A stretch of DNA of 33,535 nt from a bacterium. Its GTDB lineage: Bacteria > Bacillota > Clostridia > Oscillospirales > CAG-272. The DNA lies in NCBI GenBank assembly GCA_963643175.1, contig CAVIJF010000001.1, positions 226,975-260,509 of the forward strand. The letters are read 5' to 3'. The notes beneath the pieces are model-generated. The model was not told where the DNA came from. It searched no databases and saw only the letters and a program-made list of their open reading frames with translations. Both the position numbers and the translations under genes were made by a program. Of the stretch, positions 2,688 through 24,960 are shown piece after piece. The number at the start of each line of letters is the position of its first letter. The first letter of the stretch is position 1.

Positions 2688-5600
2688 TCAGCGCTTCACA
2701 TCCCTGTCCAGGAGGTCAAAGGTCACGCCGCCCACGTGCGGATTGCTGTTCTTCTGCACGCGACGCTTCTCAAGGAACTTGATGCCGACAGAATCCTGCT
2801 GGAGCGTACCCAGCATATTCTCAATGTGTAACCCCGTCTCGCTGGCGCCGTCCTCCGTGCGGAATTCCACGCGCACCTCGGCACCGGTCATCGGCAGCTG
2901 GTTGGACAGGACGTAGCGGTAGGGAGTCAGCGTACCGTTCAGCTCAAACTCCACCACGGAGGCGGGCATCTCACAGCCGCTGTTATACACCGAGAAGCGG
3001 ACGTATGCCTTGCCCACGCCTGTGTAGGATGCGCGAAGCGTCAGCTCCACCATATCGGAATTCTTGATGAAGGGCGTCAGAACGCCGGTCGAGTAGACGT
3101 TGGTGCAGCCCTCCATCGACTGACTGAGCGCATCCAGCGTCGTGACTTTGACGTAAGAATGGAACGGAACCACATACACGGTGCCTTCCCACTTTCCGTC
3201 TGCCGTCACGGACTTGAGCAGTCCCTGACCGTTGGATCCGTCGCCGTCGCCAATCTGGATGATGTTGTAGGAAACGCCGTCACGGACAACGCCCACGGAC
3301 GAGGTTGTGCCGCCGGTGTAGCCCGGGCGGGGCATATTCTTCGATGCCAACAATTCTATGGCTTCCTTCTCTGCATTGGCCTGGCTGTCGCTGAAGGTGA
3401 TATGGTGCAGCATCCGGACGCCGCGGTTCCACATATACTCCAGCTGCGTGTAAGCGTCAGCGCCGCTGTCCTGCAGGGCGCAGTACTCACCGATGGAAAT
3501 ATTCCACTGTCCCGCACGGTTGGCAACAGTGATCCAGTTGTCGCCGCTGTTGGCAATATATCCGTAGCGCGTGCCGCCGTAGGATGTGCCACAGGTCAGG
3601 ACGGTATCAATGGGGGAAATGCGGGTGTCTGCCTGCCCGAGGAAACCGGACACGGCTTCTCCTTCCGGAATCTGATGCGCCGAAATGGACTCGGGCGGAT
3701 ACCCGGCAATCAGTGCCTCGCGGTATGCCTCCATGATGCGCTTGCTGACAATATAGCGGTTGTACAGTGCCCACTGCGTGAAGTAATCGCCTGCGTACTT
3801 GTCCCAGTCACCGCGACCGCTCTCACGCGGCGGGTCGATTTCCTCCACGCTGGCGAAGGTGGTTCCCAGCTTTTCGTTGATCTGCTCCAGCGTTCCGTAC
3901 TGCTGCAACAGGTACAGGCGGAAGCCCTGAATCATATTCTGGTTATAGTCTCCGACCGAGCCGGGCACATTGATTTCGTGCTCATGCACGGGCGACACAC
4001 CCACCAAATGCTCCGGGTTGCCGTTCTCACCCCGGAATTCCACCACCATGGAGCGCAGGAAGGAGCGCAGCGGATAAATACGCAGCTTGGCAAGGTCAAG
4101 GATACCGTCCGCATAGGTGCCGATATAGAAACTGGATTCCAGTTCCAGATATTCGGACGCCTCGCCGTTCTTTCCGATCGAAATGTAGTCGTGTGCGCCG
4201 GTATAGGAATTCACGTAATTCTGCAGATGGGCGGTGGCGGAAATCTTGTTCCAGCGGTGTGTGAAGCACGGCTCAAGGAACATATGGCTTGAGCGGAAGG
4301 AATTGATATATCCGCTGATGCCGCCGAAGGCATAGTTCGCATAGGTGGCGCTGTCAAAGACCTGTTCCACCTTTTCCGAAGTGGAGGCACTGTTCAGCTT
4401 GCTTATGATGCCGTTGGACAGGTCACAGCGGATATGCTGGAAGGAGCCGGTACTGACGTAGGTGTCATCGTTATCATTCCAGTAACGGGCGGTGTAGAAC
4501 ACGTTTTCGCGGAACGCGACGTCAAGAAGACCGCTGTTCCCTCCGTCATAGTCATACGTGACCACAAACGAACGGTTCTCCTCGCCCTCTACTTCAGGCA
4601 GGGTCACAATGTACCGTTCCCCGACATTGGCGGAAGCATACACACCGGTCGCCGTGTCCGGCAGAGAAATGCCGCTGTTCCGGAATTCGGCGGTACGTGC
4701 ATTCCCCTCGTAGACAAGCTGCTTTGCCTTAAAATGCAGGATAATGCTGTCCTCCGTGCCGTCATTCATGGTGCGCACGGTGGCGGCGACCTCAAGGGTC
4801 TCGCCGTCTGTCGTTGGCAGTGCGAAGGCGCAGTCCAGCGTGTTCCGGCTGATGACCGACCCGTCCGCCAGATTGATCAGTACTGTCGGCAGCTTGCCGT
4901 CAGCCGTCATGCTCTGGGACAGGACAAGCAGGGTTTCGTCCTTGCTGCCCGCCACGAAGTGTCCCGTCAGGATGGTGTAGGGTCCCTCCATGATGGGGCT
5001 GAGCGTAATCTCCATGCGCAGGGTGCCGAACGTATCAAACACACGGATGTCTCCGTTCCTGCCGTCGTGCTTTACAAAGGCAGCCGTTGCAATCAGCGTT
5101 TCGTTGCCGACCTGTGCAGCCGCTACCTGCACACCGCCGCGGACGGACGGGTCAAACGCAAGGAACTGTGCCGTGACCGTCTGCTGCTGATTCAGGACGC
5201 GCACAACCGTATGGTTCGCCTCGTTTGTGCCGTCTCCCATGAAGTAACCCTCGCCCGCCACGATGCGCGGTCCCGCCGTCACACCGTCAACGGCGCCGAT
5301 CTGGGCAAAGTAGACGCTGGACTGCACGCCCAGATTCAGATCCGGCGCGGTGTAGTAGACAGCGTTGTTTTTCCCGTTGGAGATGCGGTCAGGCAGATCG
5401 ATGAAGGCATTGACGATGTCCTCCTCCGAGGCGTCGGTCATGTACAGGTACATTGCCTCCAGCGTGTAGAGATCATGGTAGGTATCCAGCGTTTCGCCGC
5501 CGTCAAAGAACATGACCAGCTTGTGGTCGTACACCAGCACCTTCTTGCCGAGATCGGCGGCAATCAGCTGCGGCGCCGCCATGCCGGTCAGAGCACCGCC

Positions 5601-6041
5601 GGTCACGCCGTAGGTATCGTACACAAAGTCCGCCAGAACCTCGACCTCACCGTCGGACAGCGCGACCAGATCGGCGGAATACTCGTTCAGCTCGGCGCCG
5701 CGGTACCCCTTGGCGGTGTTCAGACCGAGCACCAGCGCGTCGTTGCCCGCCAATACGTCATGAATGCGGGTCGCCGTGATATACTGAGCGTAGTCTGGCG
5801 TATCCGCTTCGGGGAATACGACAGCCGAGGCGTGCGGATCGGTTTCCGTCTCGGTGTCGGACCCGGCGGTGTCAGGCTCTCCGGAGCCGGATTCGTCGGG
5901 TACAATCTGGATGGTTTCAGGCAGCGTAGTCTCTCCGTCGCCGCTTTCCGTGCGGCAGGAAACGGAACACAGAACGGTGAGAAGCAGGACTGCCAGCGTC
6001 AGCAGGATGCCAAGCACAAGGTATTTCGCATTGTTTTTCAT
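2688..6041 (-). CDS. Large secreted lipoprotein (1117 aa) with FG-GAP-like beta-propeller repeats and a C-terminal glycoside-hydrolase-like region
   Basis: Signal/lipobox-like N-terminus MKNNAKYLVLGILLTLAVLLLTVLCSVSC. Repeated ..GDG.. / ..DLG.. motifs are present (FMGDGTNEA, HDGRNGDIRVFD). The C-terminal segment FRLYLLQQYGTLEQINEKLGTTFASVEEIDPP...GDWDKYAGDYFTQW resembles the GH42 / DUF4832-type motif. RBS GGGAAAGGAAACC. The family assignment is tentative. Confidence 0.7.
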   Translation of the reverse strand: MKNNAKYLVLGILLTLAVLLLTVLCSVSCRTESGDGETTLPETIQIVPDESGSGEPDTAGSDTETETDPHASAVVFPEADTPDYAQYITATRIHDVLAGNDALVLGLNTAKGYRGAELNEYSADLVALSDGEVEVLADFVYDTYGVTGGALTGMAAPQLIAADLGKKVLVYDHKLVMFFDGGETLDTYHDLYTLEAMYLYMTDASEEDIVNAFIDLPDRISNGKNNAVYYTAPDLNLGVQSSVYFAQIGAVDGVTAGPRIVAGEGYFMGDGTNEANHTVVRVLNQQQTVTAQFLAFDPSVRGGVQVAAAQVGNETLIATAAFVKHDGRNGDIRVFDTFGTLRMEITLSPIMEGPYTILTGHFVAGSKDETLLVLSQSMTADGKLPTVLINLADGSVISRNTLDCAFALPTTDGETLEVAATVRTMNDGTEDSIILHFKAKQLVYEGNARTAEFRNSGISLPDTATGVYASANVGERYIVTLPEVEGEENRSFVVTYDYDGGNSGLLDVAFRENVFYTARYWNDNDDTYVSTGSFQHIRCDLSNGIISKLNSASTSEKVEQVFDSATYANYAFGGISGYINSFRSSHMFLEPCFTHRWNKISATAHLQNYVNSYTGAHDYISIGKNGEASEYLELESSFYIGTYADGILDLAKLRIYPLRSFLRSMVVEFRGENGNPEHLVGVSPVHEHEINVPGSVGDYNQNMIQGFRLYLLQQYGTLEQINEKLGTTFASVEEIDPPRESGRGDWDKYAGDYFTQWALYNRYIVSKRIMEAYREALIAGYPPESISAHQIPEGEAVSGFLGQADTRISPIDTVLTCGTSYGGTRYGYIANSGDNWITVANRAGQWNISIGEYCALQDSGADAYTQLEYMWNRGVRMLHHITFSDSQANAEKEAIELLASKNMPRPGYTGGTTSSVGVVRDGVSYNIIQIGDGDGSNGQGLLKSVTADGKWEGTVYVVPFHSYVKVTTLDALSQSMEGCTNVYSTGVLTPFIKNSDMVELTLRASYTGVGKAYVRFSVYNSGCEMPASVVEFELNGTLTPYRYVLSNQLPMTGAEVRVEFRTEDGASETGLHIENMLGTLQQDSVGIKFLEKRRVQKNSNPHVGGVTFDLLDRDVKR

Positions 6042-17970: not shown

Positions 17971-19602
17971 TTACTCCGCCACCGTGACTGCCACGTCAAA
18001 CTCATGCCCACCGCAGGACAGCGTTACGGTACCGGTGCCCTTGCGTCCGGTGGGGAGAACATGCCCGTCCTCATCCACGATGAACAGCTCCGGACTGCGA
18101 TTGATGTACGCAACGCCGTCAGCTTTGCCGGCAAGCTCAAACCACGAGCCGTCCGCATACGTGCAAAGCCCCCGGAGCTGCTTTTTGTCGCAGTGCAGCA
18201 GGCTGACGCGGTACTCACGGATCAGCGGCTCAAAGAATACCACCTTTTTGTCCGGATACGGCTGCATGGGGCAGAAGACAGGCGGATCGGTGTCGTACAC
18301 ATACACCGGGAATTCACAGCGCAGCCCGTTCCAGACAGCCGTCACGTAGGTCAGTCCCGGGGAGCGTGCCGTGATGCGGCAGCAGCGGATAACGGCTATC
18401 TCCTTGTCGTAATTGGAGAATTTCGCACCTGCCGTTACAGGGCGTGCCTCATAGCATACATTCATGGAGAACAGCGGCAGCGGACGCGATTCGCCCACCT
18501 TTAGGCGGAGGAAGTGCGGCTTCTCCAAGAACAGTGCGGTCGGCACATATTCAGCCGGGTCATCCCACTTGACAATCTCATGGTGGACGTTGGGCTCATC
18601 CTTCTCGGAGTAGAAATCCTCGAACATCAGCTCAAAATCGTAGGCGTGCATCCGCGTTCCCCAGCAGCCCCACTGATTGCCGTAAGCGTATGCCAACAGC
18701 ATGGTGTCGCCCTTCCGGATGTGATGCTGCTCATCGCCGGAGATGCCGCAGTTGTGCAGCATCCAGCCCGTGTGAAGCCGTATCTCGTTGATGCGGCGGT
18801 AGATGAGTCCGTCGTCCGACTCGTACACCGCCAGCATGCTGTCCTCGGTAAAGCGGTAATCCGTGGACAGGGCGATAAACTTGCCCAGATCCTCACAGTA
18901 CACCATATCATAGGAATCGTTGGAGCCGCGCGGGCGCGTCACCGCCACGCCCCGGTATGTCACCGTGGCGGGCCAGTCCTCGCGCGTGATGTCCGCCGTG
19001 GCGACGCGCGTCTCATGCACTTCCTTTCCGTTGATGTCCCGGGACGTCCATGTGTAGTAGATGTACAGCACATTGTCCTTGACAACAAACGAAAACTCTC
19101 CCGCACCCCAGTTGTGCCAGTCCTCATCGTAGTAGATGACCGGCGCGGGCTTACCCAGCCAGTGGGCGCCGTCGGGGCTAACCTCGCCCCATCCATTGCC
19201 GCACCAACGCTCAAACGGTCCTGTCGGGGAGGTGGAGCGGGCAATGAATCCGTTGTTGCACACGCCGCCGTCATTGGCAAAAACGGTAGAGGTATACCCT
19301 ATGTAGTAGTACTTGCCATACTTGAACACCGCCGGGTCACAGACCGAAAACCAGTCCATGGAGTTCGGAACCGGGGTCATGACCACACGCTCCTCGCTCC
19401 ACGTCCTGCCGCCGTCCTCGGAGTGGCGGTAGGTAAACCAGTCTGCCTCGTACCCGTCGCCCGGGGAGGCAAACCACGCCTCGCACACCCCGCCGTGCAC
19501 CATGATGCTGGGACCGTAGCGGTACCCCCAGCCCTGGCTCTTCCGCGGCATATAAATGTCCTGTCCGTCGTCCTTCAGAATGAGTCTGAAATGTTTATCC
19601 AT
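17971..19602 (-). CDS. BNR/Asp-box repeat beta-propeller protein, sialidase-like glycoside hydrolase (family unassigned), cytoplasmic
   Basis: Asp-box motifs SEDGGRTWS and SDDGLIY, beta-propeller-like repeats, a C-terminal Ig-like region and no signal peptide. The ATG at 19602 (AAGGAA RBS) is preferred over the track start at 19638. Confidence 0.65.
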   Translation of the reverse strand: MDKHFRLILKDDGQDIYMPRKSQGWGYRYGPSIMVHGGVCEAWFASPGDGYEADWFTYRHSEDGGRTWSEERVVMTPVPNSMDWFSVCDPAVFKYGKYYYIGYTSTVFANDGGVCNNGFIARSTSPTGPFERWCGNGWGEVSPDGAHWLGKPAPVIYYDEDWHNWGAGEFSFVVKDNVLYIYYTWTSRDINGKEVHETRVATADITREDWPATVTYRGVAVTRPRGSNDSYDMVYCEDLGKFIALSTDYRFTEDSMLAVYESDDGLIYRRINEIRLHTGWMLHNCGISGDEQHHIRKGDTMLLAYAYGNQWGCWGTRMHAYDFELMFEDFYSEKDEPNVHHEIVKWDDPAEYVPTALFLEKPHFLRLKVGESRPLPLFSMNVCYEARPVTAGAKFSNYDKEIAVIRCCRITARSPGLTYVTAVWNGLRCEFPVYVYDTDPPVFCPMQPYPDKKVVFFEPLIREYRVSLLHCDKKQLRGLCTYADGSWFELAGKADGVAYINRSPELFIVDEDGHVLPTGRKGTGTVTLSCGGHEFDVAVTVAE

Positions 19603-19678
19603 GTCAGCGTTCCTTTCTTTACCTCTGTCATTTGTCATTCACATAAATTCAACCGGTTCCGCAGACCGCCGGACAGCA

Positions 19679-20090
19679 CTACAGCTGCCGGCGGAGCTTT
19701 TCCAGTGCCGCCTTTTCCAGCCGGGATACCTGCGCCTGCGATATGCCGATTCCTGACGCAATTTCCATCTGCGTTTTGTCGCCGTCCGGCGATTTCGTCC
19801 ACTGTCGGCTTCTTCTGATTCTCGGCAGCCAACTCCTCCCGCACGGTCAGCGCCCGATAGGCAAGGTCGCACGTGGAGTGGCTGATGCGGACGGCGGCGC
19901 TGTCCCGCAGGAAGCGGTGCACATCACCTAAAATCATGGGGACGGCATAGGTGGAGAACATGACCTCGCGGGCGGGGTCGAAGTTATCCGCCACTTTGAT
20001 CAGCCCGATACAGCCAACCTGAAACAGATCGTCCACGACCCAGCTGCTCTCGCGGCGTCCGGTAAAGCGTTGTATGATGTGGTTATGCGG
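19679..20090 (-). pseudogene. Remnant of a sporulation-type sigma-70 family sigma factor (SigG/SigF-like), with an N-terminal truncation and an internal deletion plus frameshift
   Basis: Frame A gives ...IIQRFTGRRESSWVVDDLFQVGCIGLIKVADNFDPAREVMFSTYAVPMILGDVHRFLRDSAAVRISHS..YRALTVREELAAENQKKPTVDEIA. This matches regions 2.2-3.0 of B. subtilis SigG (VIQRFNNRGEYVDDLFQVGCIGLMKSIDNFD...FSTYAVPMIIGEIRRYLRD...). Region 4.2 is in a different frame (DGDKTQMEIASGIGISQAQVSRLEKAALEKLRRQL*), starting directly at the DEIA junction near 19788. An in-frame TGA lies immediately 5' of IIQRF, only about 40 nt from the nagB stop. Confidence 0.7.
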
Positions 20091-20128
20091 TCAGGCAGGC
20101 TGGAAGGTTTTCTCAGGTACCCGCGTGA

Positions 20129-20857
20129 TTACTTCCCCAGCGCAGCGCCGTCGCAGACAAGCGTCACATCGGGGTGCAGGTTGAGAAGCGAGGCAGGGCA
20201 GGATGTTGTCAGCCCGCCTGCCAGCATGGTTGCTACGGCATCGCGCTTGGCGTTCCCGTTCGCCATAATCAGAATCTTCTTTGCCCGCAGGATGGTGCCC
20301 ATTCCCATAGTCAGGGCACGGGTCGGAACCTCCGCCTCGGAGGCAAAGAAGCGGGCGTTCGCACGGATGGTCGATGCCGTCAGGTCGGTGACGTGCGTGT
20401 CAACGGACAGGGTATCCGCAGGCTCGTTGAAGCCGATGTGCCCGTTCTGCCCGATGCCCAGCACCTGTATATCCACCTGCCCGACCGAGGCAAGGATGTC
20501 CTCATAGCGCCGGCACGCCTCCTCCGGGTCGGCGGCAGCACCGTCCGGCACATAGGTACGGGACATAACCACGTTCACGTGGTCGAACAGGTTACGGTTC
20601 ATGAAGTAGCGATAGCTCTGGTCATTCTCCGGCGCGATGGGATAGTACTCGTCCAGATTGACCGATGTCACGGCGGAAAAGTCAATCTCGCCCGCCCGGT
20701 TCATCCGGGCAAGCTCACGGTACATTCCCACGGGAGTGGAACCGGTGGCAAGTCCCAGCACGGCGTTCTGCCGGGCATGCATAACCTCCGCCACCAGTCC
20801 GGCGGCGGTGCGGGACATTTCCTCATAGTCCCTGCATTCGATTACCTTGACAGACAT
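20129..20857 (-). CDS. nagB: Glucosamine-6-phosphate deaminase
   Basis: MSVKVIECRDYEEMSRTAAGLVAEVMHARQNAVLGLATGSTPVGMYREL... is canonical NagB, 242 aa. Confidence 0.92.
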   Translation of the reverse strand: MSVKVIECRDYEEMSRTAAGLVAEVMHARQNAVLGLATGSTPVGMYRELARMNRAGEIDFSAVTSVNLDEYYPIAPENDQSYRYFMNRNLFDHVNVVMSRTYVPDGAAADPEEACRRYEDILASVGQVDIQVLGIGQNGHIGFNEPADTLSVDTHVTDLTASTIRANARFFASEAEVPTRALTMGMGTILRAKKILIMANGNAKRDAVATMLAGGLTTSCPASLLNLHPDVTLVCDGAALGK

Positions 20858-20919: not shown

Positions 20920-22086
20920 TCACCACGCGTCGCTGCCGTCCTCCGGGATGACCTCCCGGACAGCGGCAATCGCGCATTCGATCATGGAATCATCTGGTTC
21001 AAATACGGTGATATGCTGCAGGGCAAGTCCGGGTGCCGCGATGATGCGTGTCAGCCAGTTGTCATGCCGCCCGCAGAACTTGATAAGCTCATAGCCCAGC
21101 CCCACAATAACAGGTACCAGCAGGATGCGGATGCCGCTGTACAGCATGGTATTGACGATACGGTTGCCCTCGTACAGAGTCGGCGGGATGAAAAACCCGA
21201 CAAAAATGCTGACCAGTACCATCAGGATAAGGAAGGACGTGCCGCAGCGGGGGTGGAAACGGCGCTGCGCCCGCACATTCTCCACCGTCAGCGGCAGACC
21301 CGCCTCGTAGCAGAAGATGGTCTTATGCTCGGCGCCGTGGTAGCGGAAAGTGCGCCGGATATCCTTCATCAGAGAGACGGCGGCCATATAGCCGACCAGC
21401 AGGATAATTTTCAGGATGCCGGTAAAAATTGACTTGGTATAGCGGTTGTCCGCGTCGAGCCAGTCCACGTGCGAGGCAAGCGTCTCGTACAGCCATGTCG
21501 GCACGATGATGAACAGTCCGACTGCAAGCGCCAACGCCAGCACGATACTGACAACCGTCACCGCCAGCATCAGCGGCGATGTTTTCCTGTCCTTGTCCCG
21601 GACAGGCGCGGCGGCGGATTCCGCGGGCGGTGCCGCCGGGGCAGCGTTCTCCGGTACCGCATCAGCGGGTGCAGATTCCTCTGCACTTACGGGTTCCTCT
21701 GCACTGCCGCCGTCTGCGGACGTCAGCGGCGTTCCGTTTTTCGCGGCTTTCCGCGCGGCGCGGCGCTCCTCCTTTTCACGGCGCAGTTCCTCCTCGGCGT
21801 CCTCCAGACCGGATATTTCGGCGGAGCGCATCAGGCACCGGTAGCCGAATATCATGCTGTCGGCAAAATTGAAAATACCGCGTATGACCGGCACACGCCA
21901 CGGCCACGGGCGTTTGCCGGAGGAGGTCGGGAATTTTTCCAGCACAATCTCCCCGCGCGGATTGCGGACCGCCATGGCGGTAATGCGCGGACCGCGCATC
22001 ATAATGCCCTCCATCAGCGCCTGCCCTCCGATGGAGGTTTTCCGGACGGGGCACGCGGTTTCGGATTCTTTTATATGTTTACTCAT
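20920..22086 (-). CDS. DUF1385-family (YqhQ-like) membrane protein with an inserted low-complexity acidic/Ala-Pro-rich segment
   Basis: ...RYHGAEHKTIF... DUF1385 hallmark. The track ORF 20920..22260 is trimmed to the ATG at 22086, which has an AGAGGGAAAGGA RBS. An insert of about 75 aa reads EDAEEELRREKEERRAARKAAKNGTPLTSADGGSAEEPVSAEESAPADAVPENAAPAAPPAESAAAPV. Confidence 0.75.
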   Translation of the reverse strand: MSKHIKESETACPVRKTSIGGQALMEGIMMRGPRITAMAVRNPRGEIVLEKFPTSSGKRPWPWRVPVIRGIFNFADSMIFGYRCLMRSAEISGLEDAEEELRREKEERRAARKAAKNGTPLTSADGGSAEEPVSAEESAPADAVPENAAPAAPPAESAAAPVRDKDRKTSPLMLAVTVVSIVLALALAVGLFIIVPTWLYETLASHVDWLDADNRYTKSIFTGILKIILLVGYMAAVSLMKDIRRTFRYHGAEHKTIFCYEAGLPLTVENVRAQRRFHPRCGTSFLILMVLVSIFVGFFIPPTLYEGNRIVNTMLYSGIRILLVPVIVGLGYELIKFCGRHDNWLTRIIAAPGLALQHITVFEPDDSMIECAIAAVREVIPEDGSDAW

Positions 22087-22320
22087 TCTTGTCCTTTCCC
22101 TCTGTACCTGCGGCGGGGTGCGACCCTCCTGCGGGCAGTATACACAGTGTTCACATTCTACCATATATTTGTGAACGCCGTATGAATACTGGGTAATATG
22201 ACGGAAAATATTGTGCAGACCGTGCCGCGCCTCCGCAAGGTCGGGGAGTATCCGTCGCATAAATCAAGCGGTTCCCTGAATACGCCCGTACTTCCGCCGC
22301 AAGTGTTTCCGCGAAAGCGG

Positions 22321-22408: not shown

Positions 22409-23824
22409 ATGGGACTGATTAAGGCAGCTTTCGGCGCAACAGGCGGCGTACTTGCCGACCAGTGGAAGGAATTCTTCTACTGCGATGCGCTGGACAAAAA
22501 CACGCTGGTCGTGCGGGGGCAGAAGAAAACAACCCGCCGCTCCTCCAACACCAAGGGCAACGACAATGTCATTTCCAACGGTTCCGGCATCGCCGTGGCG
22601 GACGGACAGTGCATGATCATCGTGGATCAGGGGAAGGTCGCGGAGGTCTGCGCCGAGCCGGGCGAATTTACATGGGACAACTCCAGTGAGCCGAGCGTTT
22701 TCACGGGCAGGTTCGGCGACTCGCTCAAGAAGACCTTTGCCGCCATCGGTAAGCGCTTTGCCTACGGCGGCGACCCCGGCAAGGATCAGCGCGTGTACTA
22801 CTTCAACACCAAGGAAATTCTGGACAACAAGTTCGGCACTGCCACGCCCATTGATTTCCGCGTGGTGGACAGCCGCATCGGCATCGACCGCGATGTGCGC
22901 CTGCGCGTCAACGGAACCTATTCCTACCGCATTTCAGACCCCATTCTGTTCTACACAAACGTCTGCGGCAATGTCTCGGGCAGCTATGAGCGCTCTGAAC
23001 TGGATGGTCAGCTCAAGACCGAGTTTGTCTCGGCACTCATGCCCGCCGTGGGGCGTATGTCCGAGCTGGAGCTGCGTCCGAACCAGCTGATGAACCACAC
23101 CAAGGAACTGCGGGACTATCTCAACCAGGAGCTGACCGCCGAGTGGGCGGAAAAGCGCGGACTGTCGGTCGTATCGGTCGCACTGGGCGGCGTCACACTG
23201 TCCGAGGAGGACGCCGAACTGCTCCGGCAGGATCAGCGCGCGGGAACCTACCGCGATCCCGGCATGGCTGCCGGTATGCTGGCGACCGCGCAGGCGGAAG
23301 CCATGCGCACTGCCGCTGGCAATACGGGCGGCGCGATGACAGGCTTCATGGGTATGGGCATGGCGATGAACGCCGGCGCCAACACGCAGAACCTGTACGC
23401 CATGCAGCAGCAACAGCAGGCGGCACAGCCCCAGCCCGCCCCGGCGCAGGCGCCTGCCGCCGACGGCTGGGTCTGCCCCGGCTGCGGAAAAACCGTCACT
23501 GGGAAGTTCTGCCCCGAGTGCGGTGCAAAGAAGCCGGAGGCAAAGCCGGCGGACAGCTGGATCTGCCCGGAATGCGGAAAGACCGCGACCGGCAAATTCT
23601 GCCCTGAGTGCGGATCGGCGCGTCCGGCGGACAGCAGCTGGGTCTGCTCCTGCGGCGCACGGAACACCGGAAAGTTCTGCTCCGAATGCGGCGCCAGAAA
23701 GCCGGAGGCGGCTCCCCGCTACCGGTGCGATAAGTGCGGCTGGGTTCCGGAGGATCCGACCACCCCGCCCAAGTTCTGCCCGGAGTGCGGAAATCGGTTC
23801 GACGAAAACGACATCGTGCGCTGA
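22409..23824 (+). CDS. SPFH/Band-7 (stomatin/prohibitin-like) protein with four C-terminal tandem zinc ribbons (COG4260 / YdjI-like)
   Basis: N-terminus MGLIKAAFGATGGVLADQWKEFFYCD.... A Q/A/P-rich linker (MQQQQQAAQPQPAPAQAPAADG) is followed by four repeats of W[VI]CP[GE]CGKT.TGKFCPECGA.KP (23468-23824). RBS AAAGGAG. Confidence 0.82.
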   Translation: MGLIKAAFGATGGVLADQWKEFFYCDALDKNTLVVRGQKKTTRRSSNTKGNDNVISNGSGIAVADGQCMIIVDQGKVAEVCAEPGEFTWDNSSEPSVFTGRFGDSLKKTFAAIGKRFAYGGDPGKDQRVYYFNTKEILDNKFGTATPIDFRVVDSRIGIDRDVRLRVNGTYSYRISDPILFYTNVCGNVSGSYERSELDGQLKTEFVSALMPAVGRMSELELRPNQLMNHTKELRDYLNQELTAEWAEKRGLSVVSVALGGVTLSEEDAELLRQDQRAGTYRDPGMAAGMLATAQAEAMRTAAGNTGGAMTGFMGMGMAMNAGANTQNLYAMQQQQQAAQPQPAPAQAPAADGWVCPGCGKTVTGKFCPECGAKKPEAKPADSWICPECGKTATGKFCPECGSARPADSSWVCSCGARNTGKFCSECGARKPEAAPRYRCDKCGWVPEDPTTPPKFCPECGNRFDENDIVR

Positions 23825-23871: not shown

Positions 23872-24960
23872 ATGGAACAAACTATTCAGGAATTCAAGTG
23901 CCCCTGCTGCAGCGGCGCCATTGAATTCGACACCAGTCTCCAGAAAATGAAATGTCCGTATTGCGATACGGAATTCGAGCTGGACACGCTCCGGCAGTTT
24001 GACAAAACAATCCGGGAGGAACAGCCGGATCACCTGGACTGGAAAACCGAAAGCCAGTCATGGGATGCGGCGGAGGCGCAGAGCATGGCAAGTTATGTCT
24101 GCAACTCCTGCGGCGGCGAAATCATCGCGGAAGCGGCTGCCGCCGCCACCTTCTGCCCCTTCTGCGGGAACCCTGTCATTCTCAGGGGCAATTTGGAGGG
24201 CGATCTGCGTCCCGATCTGGTTATCCCGTTCAAGGTGGACAAAAAAGCCGCCGTCGCGGCGATGGCAAAGCATCTGTCCGGCAAGCGGCTCCTGCCCCGG
24301 GTATTCAAGGACGAGAACCACCTGCAGGAAATCAAGGGAATCTATGTTCCCTTCTGGCTGTACGATGCGGACTGCGAGACCGGCATCCGCTTCCGCGCAA
24401 CGCAGGTGCGCACATGGAGCAGCCGAGACTACATCTACACCGAAACCTCGCACTTTGCAGTCTTCCGCCGCGGCTCGCTGTCCTTTGAGCACGTCCCGGT
24501 GGACGGATCGACCCAGATTCCGAATGACCTGATGGAATCCATTGAGCCGTTTGACTACCGCGAGGCGGTGGACTTCCGGACGGCGTACCTGTCCGGTTTC
24601 TTCGCCGACCGCTACAACGAGTCTGCCTCCGACTGTGAGGAACGCGCCAACGAACGCATCCGGAACAGCACGCAGGCGGCGGTCATGGCTACGGTGCAGG
24701 GGTACTCCAGCATCACGCCGGAGCACATCTCGGTACAGATGCAGGCAGGCAAAACGCTCTATGCCCTGCTTCCGGTCTGGATATTGACCACCAAGTGGAA
24801 CGGACAAAACTATACCTTCGCCATGAACGGGCAGACAGGTAAATTTGTGGGCAATCTGCCGATGGACAAGGCGGCATACCACAAGTGGCTCTGGGGACTG
24901 ACCGCCGCCGTCAGCGCGGGTATCATCGGGCTGTCCTACCTCATCCACCTGCTGACCTGA
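23872..24960 (+). CDS. Membrane protein with two N-terminal zinc ribbons (YdjG-like)
   Basis: CPCCSG..(17 aa)..CPYCDTEF and CNSCGG..(14 aa)..CPFCGNPV, with a C-terminal TM segment WLWGLTAAVSAGIIGLSYLIHLL. RBS AGGAGGG. Assignment as a YdjG homolog is from memory of the B. subtilis pspA-ydjGHI operon. Confidence 0.7.
   Translation: MEQTIQEFKCPCCSGAIEFDTSLQKMKCPYCDTEFELDTLRQFDKTIREEQPDHLDWKTESQSWDAAEAQSMASYVCNSCGGEIIAEAAAAATFCPFCGNPVILRGNLEGDLRPDLVIPFKVDKKAAVAAMAKHLSGKRLLPRVFKDENHLQEIKGIYVPFWLYDADCETGIRFRATQVRTWSSRDYIYTETSHFAVFRRGSLSFEHVPVDGSTQIPNDLMESIEPFDYREAVDFRTAYLSGFFADRYNESASDCEERANERIRNSTQAAVMATVQGYSSITPEHISVQMQAGKTLYALLPVWILTTKWNGQNYTFAMNGQTGKFVGNLPMDKAAYHKWLWGLTAAVSAGIIGLSYLIHLLT

What the first reader, a model, noticed from the sequence alone, without database searches (positions are those of the whole stretch)
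19679..20090. Decayed SigG/SigF-type sporulation sigma factor gene wedged between nagB and a glycosidase gene
About 410 nt translate as sigma-70 regions 2.2 to 3.0 with high similarity to B. subtilis SigG, from IIQRF..DDLFQVGCIGLIK..FSTYAVPMI to KPTVDEIA. At that point the sequence jumps, with a frame change, straight into region 4.2 (KTQMEIASGIGISQAQVSRLEKAALEKL). The region-1/2.1 coding part is absent: an in-frame TGA lies directly 5' of IIQRF, about 40 nt from the nagB stop. The gene therefore has an N-terminal truncation plus an internal deletion of about 65 codons, a classic pseudogene. It suggests a lineage that has lost, or is losing, endospore formation, or a past rearrangement that brought nagB in. 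The remnant still sits inside an apparently transcribed operon.
Basis: partly seen in the sequence, partly recalled or inferred. Interest (0 to 1): 0.7.

Follow-up and report, generated by a model that had tools for sequence, protein, structure and literature searches.

The report
Dead sigG sporulation sigma-factor gene
This stretch is the broken remnant of sigG, the gene that switches on late spore development; it was wrecked by two deletions in one uncultured gut Clostridia lineage, while its closest relatives keep the gene intact at the same place, so it is an ordinary though clean marker of probable recent loss of spore formation.

Summary
On the minus strand, 20081-19679 matches the SigG sporulation sigma factor (NCBIfam SigG equivalog, E 5e-50). 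Only codons 59-157 and 236-268 of a 268-codon gene survive. DNA alignment with the sister species shows two deletions. A 225-nt deletion removed the promoter -10 box, the RBS hairpin, the ATG and about 58 codons. A 233-nt deletion removed codons 158-235 and shifted the frame. The same remnant occurs in six independent assemblies, so it is not an assembly error. The gene order nagB-sigG-GH-pyrH-frr is ancestral. Twenty-two related species and the sister species carry an intact sigG there, behind a conserved forespore-type promoter, so no rearrangement "brought nagB in". The remnant has changed at 7 of 72 positions that are invariant in the intact orthologues. Its branch has 10 nonsynonymous to 15 synonymous changes, against 1 to 13 on the sister branch. 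The sister's intact protein is seen on more than 1,500 contigs; damaged sister alleles are rare. I conclude this is a lineage-specific unitary sigG pseudogene, implying loss of late forespore gene expression. Genome-wide sporulation loss could not be tested. This is a known kind of event, of modest interest.

The parts
20129..20857 (-). nagB (glucosamine-6-phosphate deaminase), intact, 242 aa; the upstream neighbour
   Evidence: TIGR00502 scores 277 bits against a cut-off of 237, with full-length profile coverage. It is syntenic in all relatives.
20084..20088 (-). Surviving -35 box (GCATA) of the ancestral forespore-type sigG promoter; the -10 box is deleted
   Evidence: G[CT]ATA-N18-19-[CA]ATACT is found upstream of sigG in 23 of 23 orthologous loci. 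The window keeps only GCATA.
20080..20081 (-). Junction of deletion 1. The 225 nt missing relative to the sister species comprise the -10 box, the leader hairpin with the RBS, the ATG and codons 1 to about 58
   Evidence: DNA alignments; 2 nt of microhomology at most.
19782..20078 (-). Remnant segment A: codons 59-157 (sigma regions 2.1 end / 2.2-2.4 and 3.0)
   Evidence: 89% amino-acid identity to the sister SigG, residues 58-157; Pfam Sigma70_r2.
19780..19781 (-). Junction of deletion 2. The 233 nt missing are codons 158-235 plus 2 nt, covering regions 3.1-4.1, which shifts the frame
   Evidence: no microhomology.
19679..19780 (-). Remnant segment B: codons 236-268 (region 4.2 helix-turn-helix) plus the original stop codon, now out of frame with segment A
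   Evidence: 97% amino-acid identity to the sister SigG, residues 236-268; Pfam Sigma70_r4.
19635..20036 (-). Mechanical 133-aa ORF (GTG start) that gene callers report for the remnant (protein P0003); a 100-residue sigma fragment plus a 33-residue out-of-frame tail
   Evidence: The identical ORF is called in 6 other assemblies.
19675..19676 (-). Junction of a further gap of about 35 nt just 3' of the stop codon, relative to the sister species
   Evidence: placement of the gap is somewhat alignment-dependent.
17971..19602 (-). Downstream neighbour, a 543-aa protein (the ORF can extend to 19638); it is conserved next to sigG in most relatives
   Evidence: Matches are a Big-like C-terminal domain and a sub-threshold GH130 hit only.

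Best explanation
Window 19679-20093 (minus strand) is a unitary pseudogene of sigG (spoIIIG), the late forespore RNA-polymerase sigma factor. It sits at the position where the single sigG orthologue lies in this clade of uncultured gut Clostridia (DUF1385 - nagB - sigG - 543-aa protein - pyrH - frr). In the lineage of this window two deletions destroyed it. One of 225 nt removed the -10 box of its own forespore-type promoter, the leader with the ribosome-binding site, the start codon and about 58 codons (regions 1.2/2.1). One of 233 nt removed regions 3.1-4.1 and put region 4.2 out of frame. What remains cannot be translated into a sigma factor and has since drifted. Shown here: homology, synteny, the two deletions, reproducibility and relaxed constraint. 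Inferred: sigG is required for sporulation and is present in every known spore-former, so this organism can no longer complete endospores. The loss is specific to this lineage and fairly recent, since the sister species keeps sigG under strong purifying selection. The remnant is probably carried passively on read-through RNA from nagB.
For: The family assignment is SigG: it is the best NCBIfam match for the remnant (170 bits, E 5e-50; SigF 144) and for the intact sister orthologue (369 bits against SigF 271). The base-level alignment to L007-L009 defines the deletions of 225 and 233 nt. An identical remnant occurs in 4 NCBI MAGs and 2 Logan assemblies of independent runs. Twenty-two species (L010-L031) have intact 256-268-aa sigG in the same gene order. 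The intact sister protein variants are seen on 606, 592, 208, 110 and 21 contigs. A forespore-type promoter motif is present in 23 of 23 orthologous upstream regions and is half deleted here. The remnant differs at 7 of 72 positions that are invariant in the 22 intact orthologues, while the sister differs at 0 of 133. On the window branch there are 10 nonsynonymous and 15 synonymous changes, against 1 and 13 on the sister branch (one-sided Fisher p = 0.03). The missing parts are not elsewhere in the window. [quoted passage not shown]
Against: Only 33.5 kb of the genome is visible, so a second sigG copy or the state of spo0A, sigF, sigE, sigK and spoIVA could not be examined. Pairwise dN/dS between window and sister is still low (0.07). 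Most of the divergence therefore predates inactivation, and the relaxed-constraint signal rests on few substitutions (two-sided p = 0.06). The intact orthologue falls 3 bits short of the NF006071 cut-off (369 against 372). All seven assemblies of this species may come from one or two studies, so fixation across the species is not proven.
Confidence: 0.9

Rival explanations
1. This is an assembly or sequencing artefact: the gene is intact in the organism and the deletions were created by the assembler.
For: Some metagenome contigs of the sister species do show error-like lesions. L118 has 1-2-nt indels throughout, including in the neighbouring gene, and L007 has an N gap.
Against: The identical 133-aa remnant ORF, with 100% identical neighbours, occurs in six separate assemblies from NCBI MAGs and Logan runs. 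The two lesions are large, clean deletions. The retained part also carries 7 changes at invariant residues, which an assembly error would not produce.
Confidence: 0.02
2. The remnant is a decayed duplicate, and an intact sigG elsewhere in the genome still supports sporulation.
For: The rest of the genome could not be searched. The protein search is not exhaustive: it missed the large intact sister cluster, which was found only.
Against: The remnant occupies the exact syntenic slot of the orthologue in 22 species plus the sister species. No second SigG-like hit lies in any of those 20-kb loci. No other protein with more than 73% identity to the remnant was returned. From general knowledge, sigG is single-copy in characterised spore-formers.
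Confidence: 0.04
3. The 133-aa ORF (19635-20036) is expressed and has a new function, for example as a sigma region-2/3.0 fragment that binds core RNA polymerase or an anti-sigma factor.
For: An open frame of 133 codons persists and is called as a gene in public assemblies. It is probably transcribed by read-through from nagB, since no terminator-like site was found.
Against: The promoter -10 box and RBS are deleted. The start is a GTG without a clear Shine-Dalgarno sequence. The last 33 residues are out-of-frame junk. Invariant residues of regions 2.3/2.4 and 3.0 have been replaced (E>D, R>H, R>H, R>C). Nonsynonymous change is raised about ninefold relative to the sister branch.
Confidence: 0.03
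4. The gene is split and is reconstituted by programmed DNA rearrangement, as sigK is by excision of the skin element.
For: Interrupted sporulation sigma genes exist (sigK).
Against: Here sequence is missing, not interrupted. There is no inserted element or recombinase gene at either junction. The missing N-terminal and middle segments are not found anywhere in the window. The two retained pieces abut directly.
Confidence: 0.01

Closest known systems
sigG / spoIIIG, the late forespore sigma factor of Bacillus and Clostridia (NCBIfam NF006071, TIGR02850)
   Same: It is the best-scoring family for the remnant and for the intact orthologues. The orthologues have the SigG-type N-terminus (MY..KV.ICGVNT..L), are monocistronic behind a GCATA-N18-CATACT forespore-type promoter, and have a leader hairpin covering the RBS.
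   Different: In this window, regions 1.2/2.1 and 3.1-4.1, the promoter -10 box, the RBS and the start codon are gone, so it is not a functional member. In this clade sigG follows nagB instead of spoIIGA-sigE. In the Clostridium loci L046-L088, by contrast, a sigE-like gene lies directly upstream.
Sporulation-gene loss in gut 'Former-Spore-Formers' (Browne et al. 2021, PMC8340488)
   Same: A gut-associated Clostridia lineage has lost a core sporulation gene while close relatives keep it. This fits the picture of repeated independent losses.
   Different: That study scored presence or absence of 66 signature genes and spo0A across genomes. Here only one gene is seen, still present as a datable remnant. 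Genome-wide loss is not demonstrated.
Frameshifted or nonsense-mutated sporulation genes noted in Firmicutes genomes (Galperin et al. preprint 10.1101/2022.02.25.481979, Table S3)
   Same: Disabling lesions in an otherwise widely conserved sporulation gene.
   Different: Those cases are mostly single frameshifts that may be sequencing errors. This one has two large deletions reproduced in seven assemblies, plus substitution evidence of decay.
sigK interrupted by the skin element
   Same: A sporulation sigma gene whose coding sequence is not contiguous.
   Different: skin is an insertion that is excised to restore the gene. Here the sequence is deleted and nothing can restore it.

Membership tests
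SigG (RNA polymerase sporulation sigma factor, NCBIfam NF006071 / TIGR02850) | Whole-protein score at or above the curated equivalog cut-off | tested here: not met
   The remnant scores 170.5 bits against a cut-off of 372, as expected for a fragment. The intact sister orthologue scores 369.1 against 372 on NF006071, and 358 against 457 on TIGR02850, which is just short. SigG is still about 100 bits above SigF, and the SigB/F/G subfamily cut-off is met (254 against 234).
SigG (RNA polymerase sporulation sigma factor, NCBIfam NF006071 / TIGR02850) | Complete sigma-70 architecture (regions 2, 3 and 4) in one reading frame | tested here: not met
   Only codons 59-157 and 236-268 remain, in two frames, with no start codon. 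Intact orthologues have all regions.
SigG (RNA polymerase sporulation sigma factor, NCBIfam NF006071 / TIGR02850) | Forespore-type (sigmaF/sigmaG-dependent) promoter upstream. The consensus was recalled from the B. subtilis literature and was not itself tested. | tested here: inconclusive
   G[CT]ATA-N18-19-[CA]ATACT is present in 23 of 23 orthologous upstream regions. In the window only the GCATA box survives. Promoter activity is not testable here.
SigG (RNA polymerase sporulation sigma factor, NCBIfam NF006071 / TIGR02850) | Position downstream of spoIIGA-sigE | tested here: not met
   In this clade the gene follows nagB. A sigE-like gene directly upstream is seen only in the Clostridium sensu stricto loci. 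This feature is common but not universal.
Unitary pseudogene | Homology to a functional gene at the orthologous (syntenic) position | tested here: met
   The same flanking genes are found in 22 species and the sister species, all with intact sigG.
Unitary pseudogene | Disabling lesions that are real (reproducible) | tested here: met
   The lesions are two deletions, a frameshift, and loss of the start codon and RBS. They are identical in 6 other assemblies.
Unitary pseudogene | Relaxed selective constraint after inactivation | tested here: met
   7 of 72 invariant residues have changed, against 0 of 133 in the sister. The branch counts are 10 nonsynonymous to 15 synonymous against 1 to 13, one-sided p = 0.03. 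The numbers are small.
Unitary pseudogene | No functional product | not testable with these tools
   This needs transcript and protein data.
Former-Spore-Former genome (Browne et al. 2021) | Low genome-wide sporulation-signature score, usually with spo0A absent | not testable with these tools
   Only the 33.5-kb window is available. No tool here searches a named genome.
skin-like split sigma gene | Both gene halves present, separated by an excisable element carrying a recombinase | tested here: not met
   There is no insertion at the junctions, and the missing segments are absent from the window.

The most novel reading that the evidence does not exclude
The sigG deletion is not a late by-product but an early or initiating lesion of a very recent loss of sporulation. 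This rare lineage and its abundant sigG-intact human-gut sister species would then be a natural before/after pair for studying how a gut commensal abandons spore-based transmission. A related reading concerns the rare damaged sigG alleles in the sister species: three nonsense alleles, five in-frame deletions with breakpoints crowded at CDS nt 533-569, one 767-nt deletion and two frameshifts (about 30 of more than 1,500 contigs). These could reflect recurrent within-host selection of asporogenous variants that do not transmit.
Probability: 0.12. Interest if true: 0.55.

Novelty: new member of a known kind. Interest (0 to 1): 0.3.

Why it matters
Loss of spore formation changes how a gut anaerobe is transmitted and is a recognised route of host adaptation. 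A sigG remnant that can be dated, with an intact orthologue in the sister species and in 22 further species at the same locus, flags a recent, lineage-specific loss. It also gives a simple marker (the two deletion junctions) for telling spore-forming from non-spore-forming relatives in metagenomes. It warns annotators that the 133-aa 'sigma factor' ORF called in public MAGs is a pseudogene fragment. It does not reveal a new mechanism.

Tried and rejected
1. After it looked as if the sister species had only damaged sigG alleles, which suggested massive recurrent inactivation. This was an ascertainment artefact. The remnant query pulled out only the clusters of truncated proteins. The metagenome scan found intact alleles, and an exact look-up showed intact 268-aa variants on 606, 592, 208, 110 and 21 contigs in a 228-member cluster. 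Polymorphism counts in the sister species (28 synonymous, 7 missense) resemble nagB (29, 6). The damaged alleles are therefore rare.

2. All five internal deletions in the sister species are in frame (p about 0.004). I do not build on this, because discovery through protein clusters favours in-frame products.

3. L118 was discarded as sequencing error, since it has indels everywhere. L101 was discarded as a possible chimera at 1.8x coverage.

4. I looked for the missing gene segments elsewhere in the window and found none.

5. I checked whether the genes lying between sigG and the 543-aa gene in more distant relatives are sporulation genes lost here. They are IMPase-like, YhhQ-like and SDR genes.

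6. I tried to name the organism from cluster annotations. No names were available, only 'Clostridiales/Oscillospiraceae bacterium' on relatives.

7. Promoter and terminator scans of the locus found nothing.

8. pyrH polymorphism counts are corrupted by the frameshifted L007 contig and were ignored.

Full report
**What is there.** On the minus strand between nagB (20129-20857) and a 543/555-aa gene (17971-19602/19638), two pieces of a sigma-70-family gene can be read.
- Frame A (20087->19782) gives HNHIIQRFTGRRESSWVVDDLFQVGCIGLIKVADNFDPAREVMFSTYAVPMILGDVHRFLRDSAAVRISHSTCDLAYRALTVREELAAENQKKPTVDEIAGR.
- After a frame change, frame B (19780->19682) gives DKTQMEIASGIGISQAQVSRLEKAALEKLRRQL, followed by a stop at 19681-19679.
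- An in-frame TGA lies at 20093-20091, 35 nt after the nagB stop.
- The joined translation matches the NCBIfam SigG equivalog best (NF006071, 170.5 bits, E 4.8e-50; SigF 143.6 bits). It also hits Pfam Sigma70_r2 and Sigma70_r4.

**What the intact gene looks like.** A protein search with the remnant returned closely related proteins from metagenomes. Their contigs (L007-L009) have the same gene order: DUF1385 - nagB - sigma - 543-aa gene - pyrH - frr. The reconstructed full-length protein has 268 residues. It scores 369 bits on the SigG equivalog (cut-off 372) against 271 on SigF, and it carries the SigG-type N-terminus MYRSKVVICGVNTSRL.

A scan of one genome per species returned 22 further species (L010-L031). 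They share 72-88% amino-acid identity and are MAGs labelled Oscillospiraceae, Clostridia or Eubacteriales from human, horse, deer, sheep and yak guts. In each, an uninterrupted 256-268-aa sigG lies in the same neighbourhood. In Clostridium sensu stricto loci from the same scan, sigG is instead preceded by a sigE-like gene. The nagB-sigG adjacency is therefore ancestral to this clade and not the result of a rearrangement in the window.

**The lesions.** Base-level alignment of the window with the sister-species loci shows two deletions.
- Deletion 1 (junction 20081|20080) removes 225 nt: 53 nt of leader and the first 172 nt of coding sequence.
- Deletion 2 (junction 19781|19780) removes 233 nt: CDS nt 473-705, i.e. 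codons 158-235 plus 2 nt. This explains the frame change.
- Microhomology at the junctions is 0-2 nt.
- About 35 nt just after the stop codon are also missing.

The missing segments are nowhere else in the window, and nothing is inserted at the junctions. A skin-like split gene is therefore excluded.

**What deletion 1 removed besides codons.** All 23 orthologous upstream regions examined contain G[CT]ATA-N18-19-[CA]ATACT, ending 28-50 nt before the ATG. From my memory of the B. subtilis literature, this resembles forespore sigmaF/sigmaG-type promoters. Downstream of it, the leader folds into a hairpin (-20 to -30 kcal/mol). The 5' arm overlaps the -10 box and the 3' arm covers the GGGAG ribosome-binding site. 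Seven of the 10 consensus pairs show compensatory changes. The window retains only the GCATA box (20084-20088).

**Artefact or real.** The identical 133-aa ORF that gene callers make from the remnant (P0003; window 19635-20036) is present, with 100% identical neighbours, in four NCBI MAGs and two Logan assemblies of separate sequencing runs. This rules out a one-off assembly error.

**Evidence of decay.**
- Within the 132 retained codons, 72 positions are invariant in the 22 intact orthologues. The window differs at 7 of them (A>V, V>A, E>D, R>H, R>H, R>C, E>G). The sister species differs at none of 133 invariant positions, and leave-one-out controls give 0 of 72.
- Changes were polarised with L010 as outgroup. 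The window branch has 15 synonymous and 10 nonsynonymous changes; the sister branch has 13 and 1 (Fisher one-sided p = 0.03, two-sided 0.06).
- Pairwise dN/dS between window and sister is still 0.07. Most of the divergence (dS about 0.6) therefore accrued while the gene was functional. A rough estimate is that the gene has been dead for about a fifth of the time since the split.

**The sister species.** I first thought the sister species held only damaged alleles, because the clusters retrieved with the remnant query contain only truncated or internally deleted proteins. That was ascertainment bias. The metagenome scan found intact genes (L104-L107, L115). An exact look-up shows intact 268-aa variants on 606, 592, 208, 110 and 21 contigs, within a 228-member cluster. 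Segregating variation in sigG (28 synonymous, 7 missense) looks like that of nagB (29, 6). Damaged alleles do exist at low frequency:
- nonsense K147*, W208* (8 contigs) and Q226*;
- in-frame deletions of 9, 30, 114 (6 contigs), 120 and 213 nt;
- a 767-nt deletion running into the next gene;
- frameshifts of -1 and +2.

Counting independent lesions, sigG has about 10 in 0.8 kb against about 6 in 4.25 kb of flanking genes (binomial p = 3e-5). That count is affected by the same ascertainment, and I treat it only as a side observation.

**Interpretation.** The feature is a lineage-specific unitary pseudogene of sigG. According to a survey of Firmicutes genomes, sigG is found in every spore-former (10.1101/2022.02.25.481979). 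From general knowledge, it is needed for late forespore gene expression. The organism therefore very probably cannot complete endospores. Independent sporulation losses are well documented in gut Firmicutes (PMC8340488), so this is a new instance of a known process.

What I could not do is examine the rest of the genome for spo0A, sigF, sigE, sigK and the structural sporulation genes. 'Sporulation lost' therefore remains an inference, and a second sigG copy cannot be formally excluded.

All genes from DUF1385 to frr are co-directional, and no terminator-like site lies between nagB and the 543-aa gene. The remnant is thus probably transcribed passively, but this is untested.

**Verdict.** This is a new member of a known kind, of modest interest.

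Noticed in passing
L115:2941-3006, L010:9941-10006, L012:9941-10006, L020:9941-10006 and the other orthologous leaders; deleted in the window at 20080/20081: Intact sigG genes of this clade have a leader hairpin whose 5' arm overlaps the promoter -10 box and whose 3' arm covers the RBS. Seven of 10 consensus pairs show compensatory changes, and the MFE is -20 to -30 kcal/mol. Only read-through RNA from nagB would contain both arms. This suggests a block on sigG translation from vegetative read-through transcripts, analogous (from memory) to the spoIIG-sigG read-through transcript of B. subtilis.
   Followed up: partly
Sister-species loci L007, L009, L096-L100, L109 (sigG CDS nt 414-761): All five internal sigG deletions seen in sister-species contigs are multiples of three (9, 30, 114, 120, 213 nt). 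Their breakpoints crowd into CDS nt 533-569, with 0-2 nt of microhomology. The window's own 233-nt deletion spans the same spot. This may be an ascertainment effect of protein clustering; it remains unexplained.
   Followed up: partly
L111:706-1476 (metagenome contig OHDE01004723.1): The first 60 or so codons of this sigG come from a different SigG lineage. The sequence switches to the sister-species sequence at the conserved DDLFQVGCIGL stretch. This is either a chimeric assembly or recombination.
   Followed up: no
L009:2347-3067, L103:673-1396, L174:489-1136: nagB itself is frameshifted or shortened in a few sister-species contigs, so some lesions in these metagenome contigs hit housekeeping neighbours too (error or rare variants).
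   Followed up: partly
window 20920-22260 (-): The DUF1385 protein has an Ala/Pro/Glu-rich low-complexity insert of about 100 residues splitting the domain. The insert is the part that varies most among relatives.
   Followed up: no
window 22409-23824 (+): This is an SPFH/Band-7 domain protein followed by a Gln/Ala-rich linker and four to five tandem CxxC...CxxC zinc-ribbon repeats.
   Followed up: no
It has only a C-terminal Big-like domain, a sub-threshold GH130 hit (E 0.004) and insignificant sialidase-like PDB hits. Its function is open.
   Followed up: partly
window 2688-6041 (-) and 23872-24960 (+): Large ORFs of 1117 aa and 362 aa have no Pfam match at E<=1e-5.
   Followed up: no
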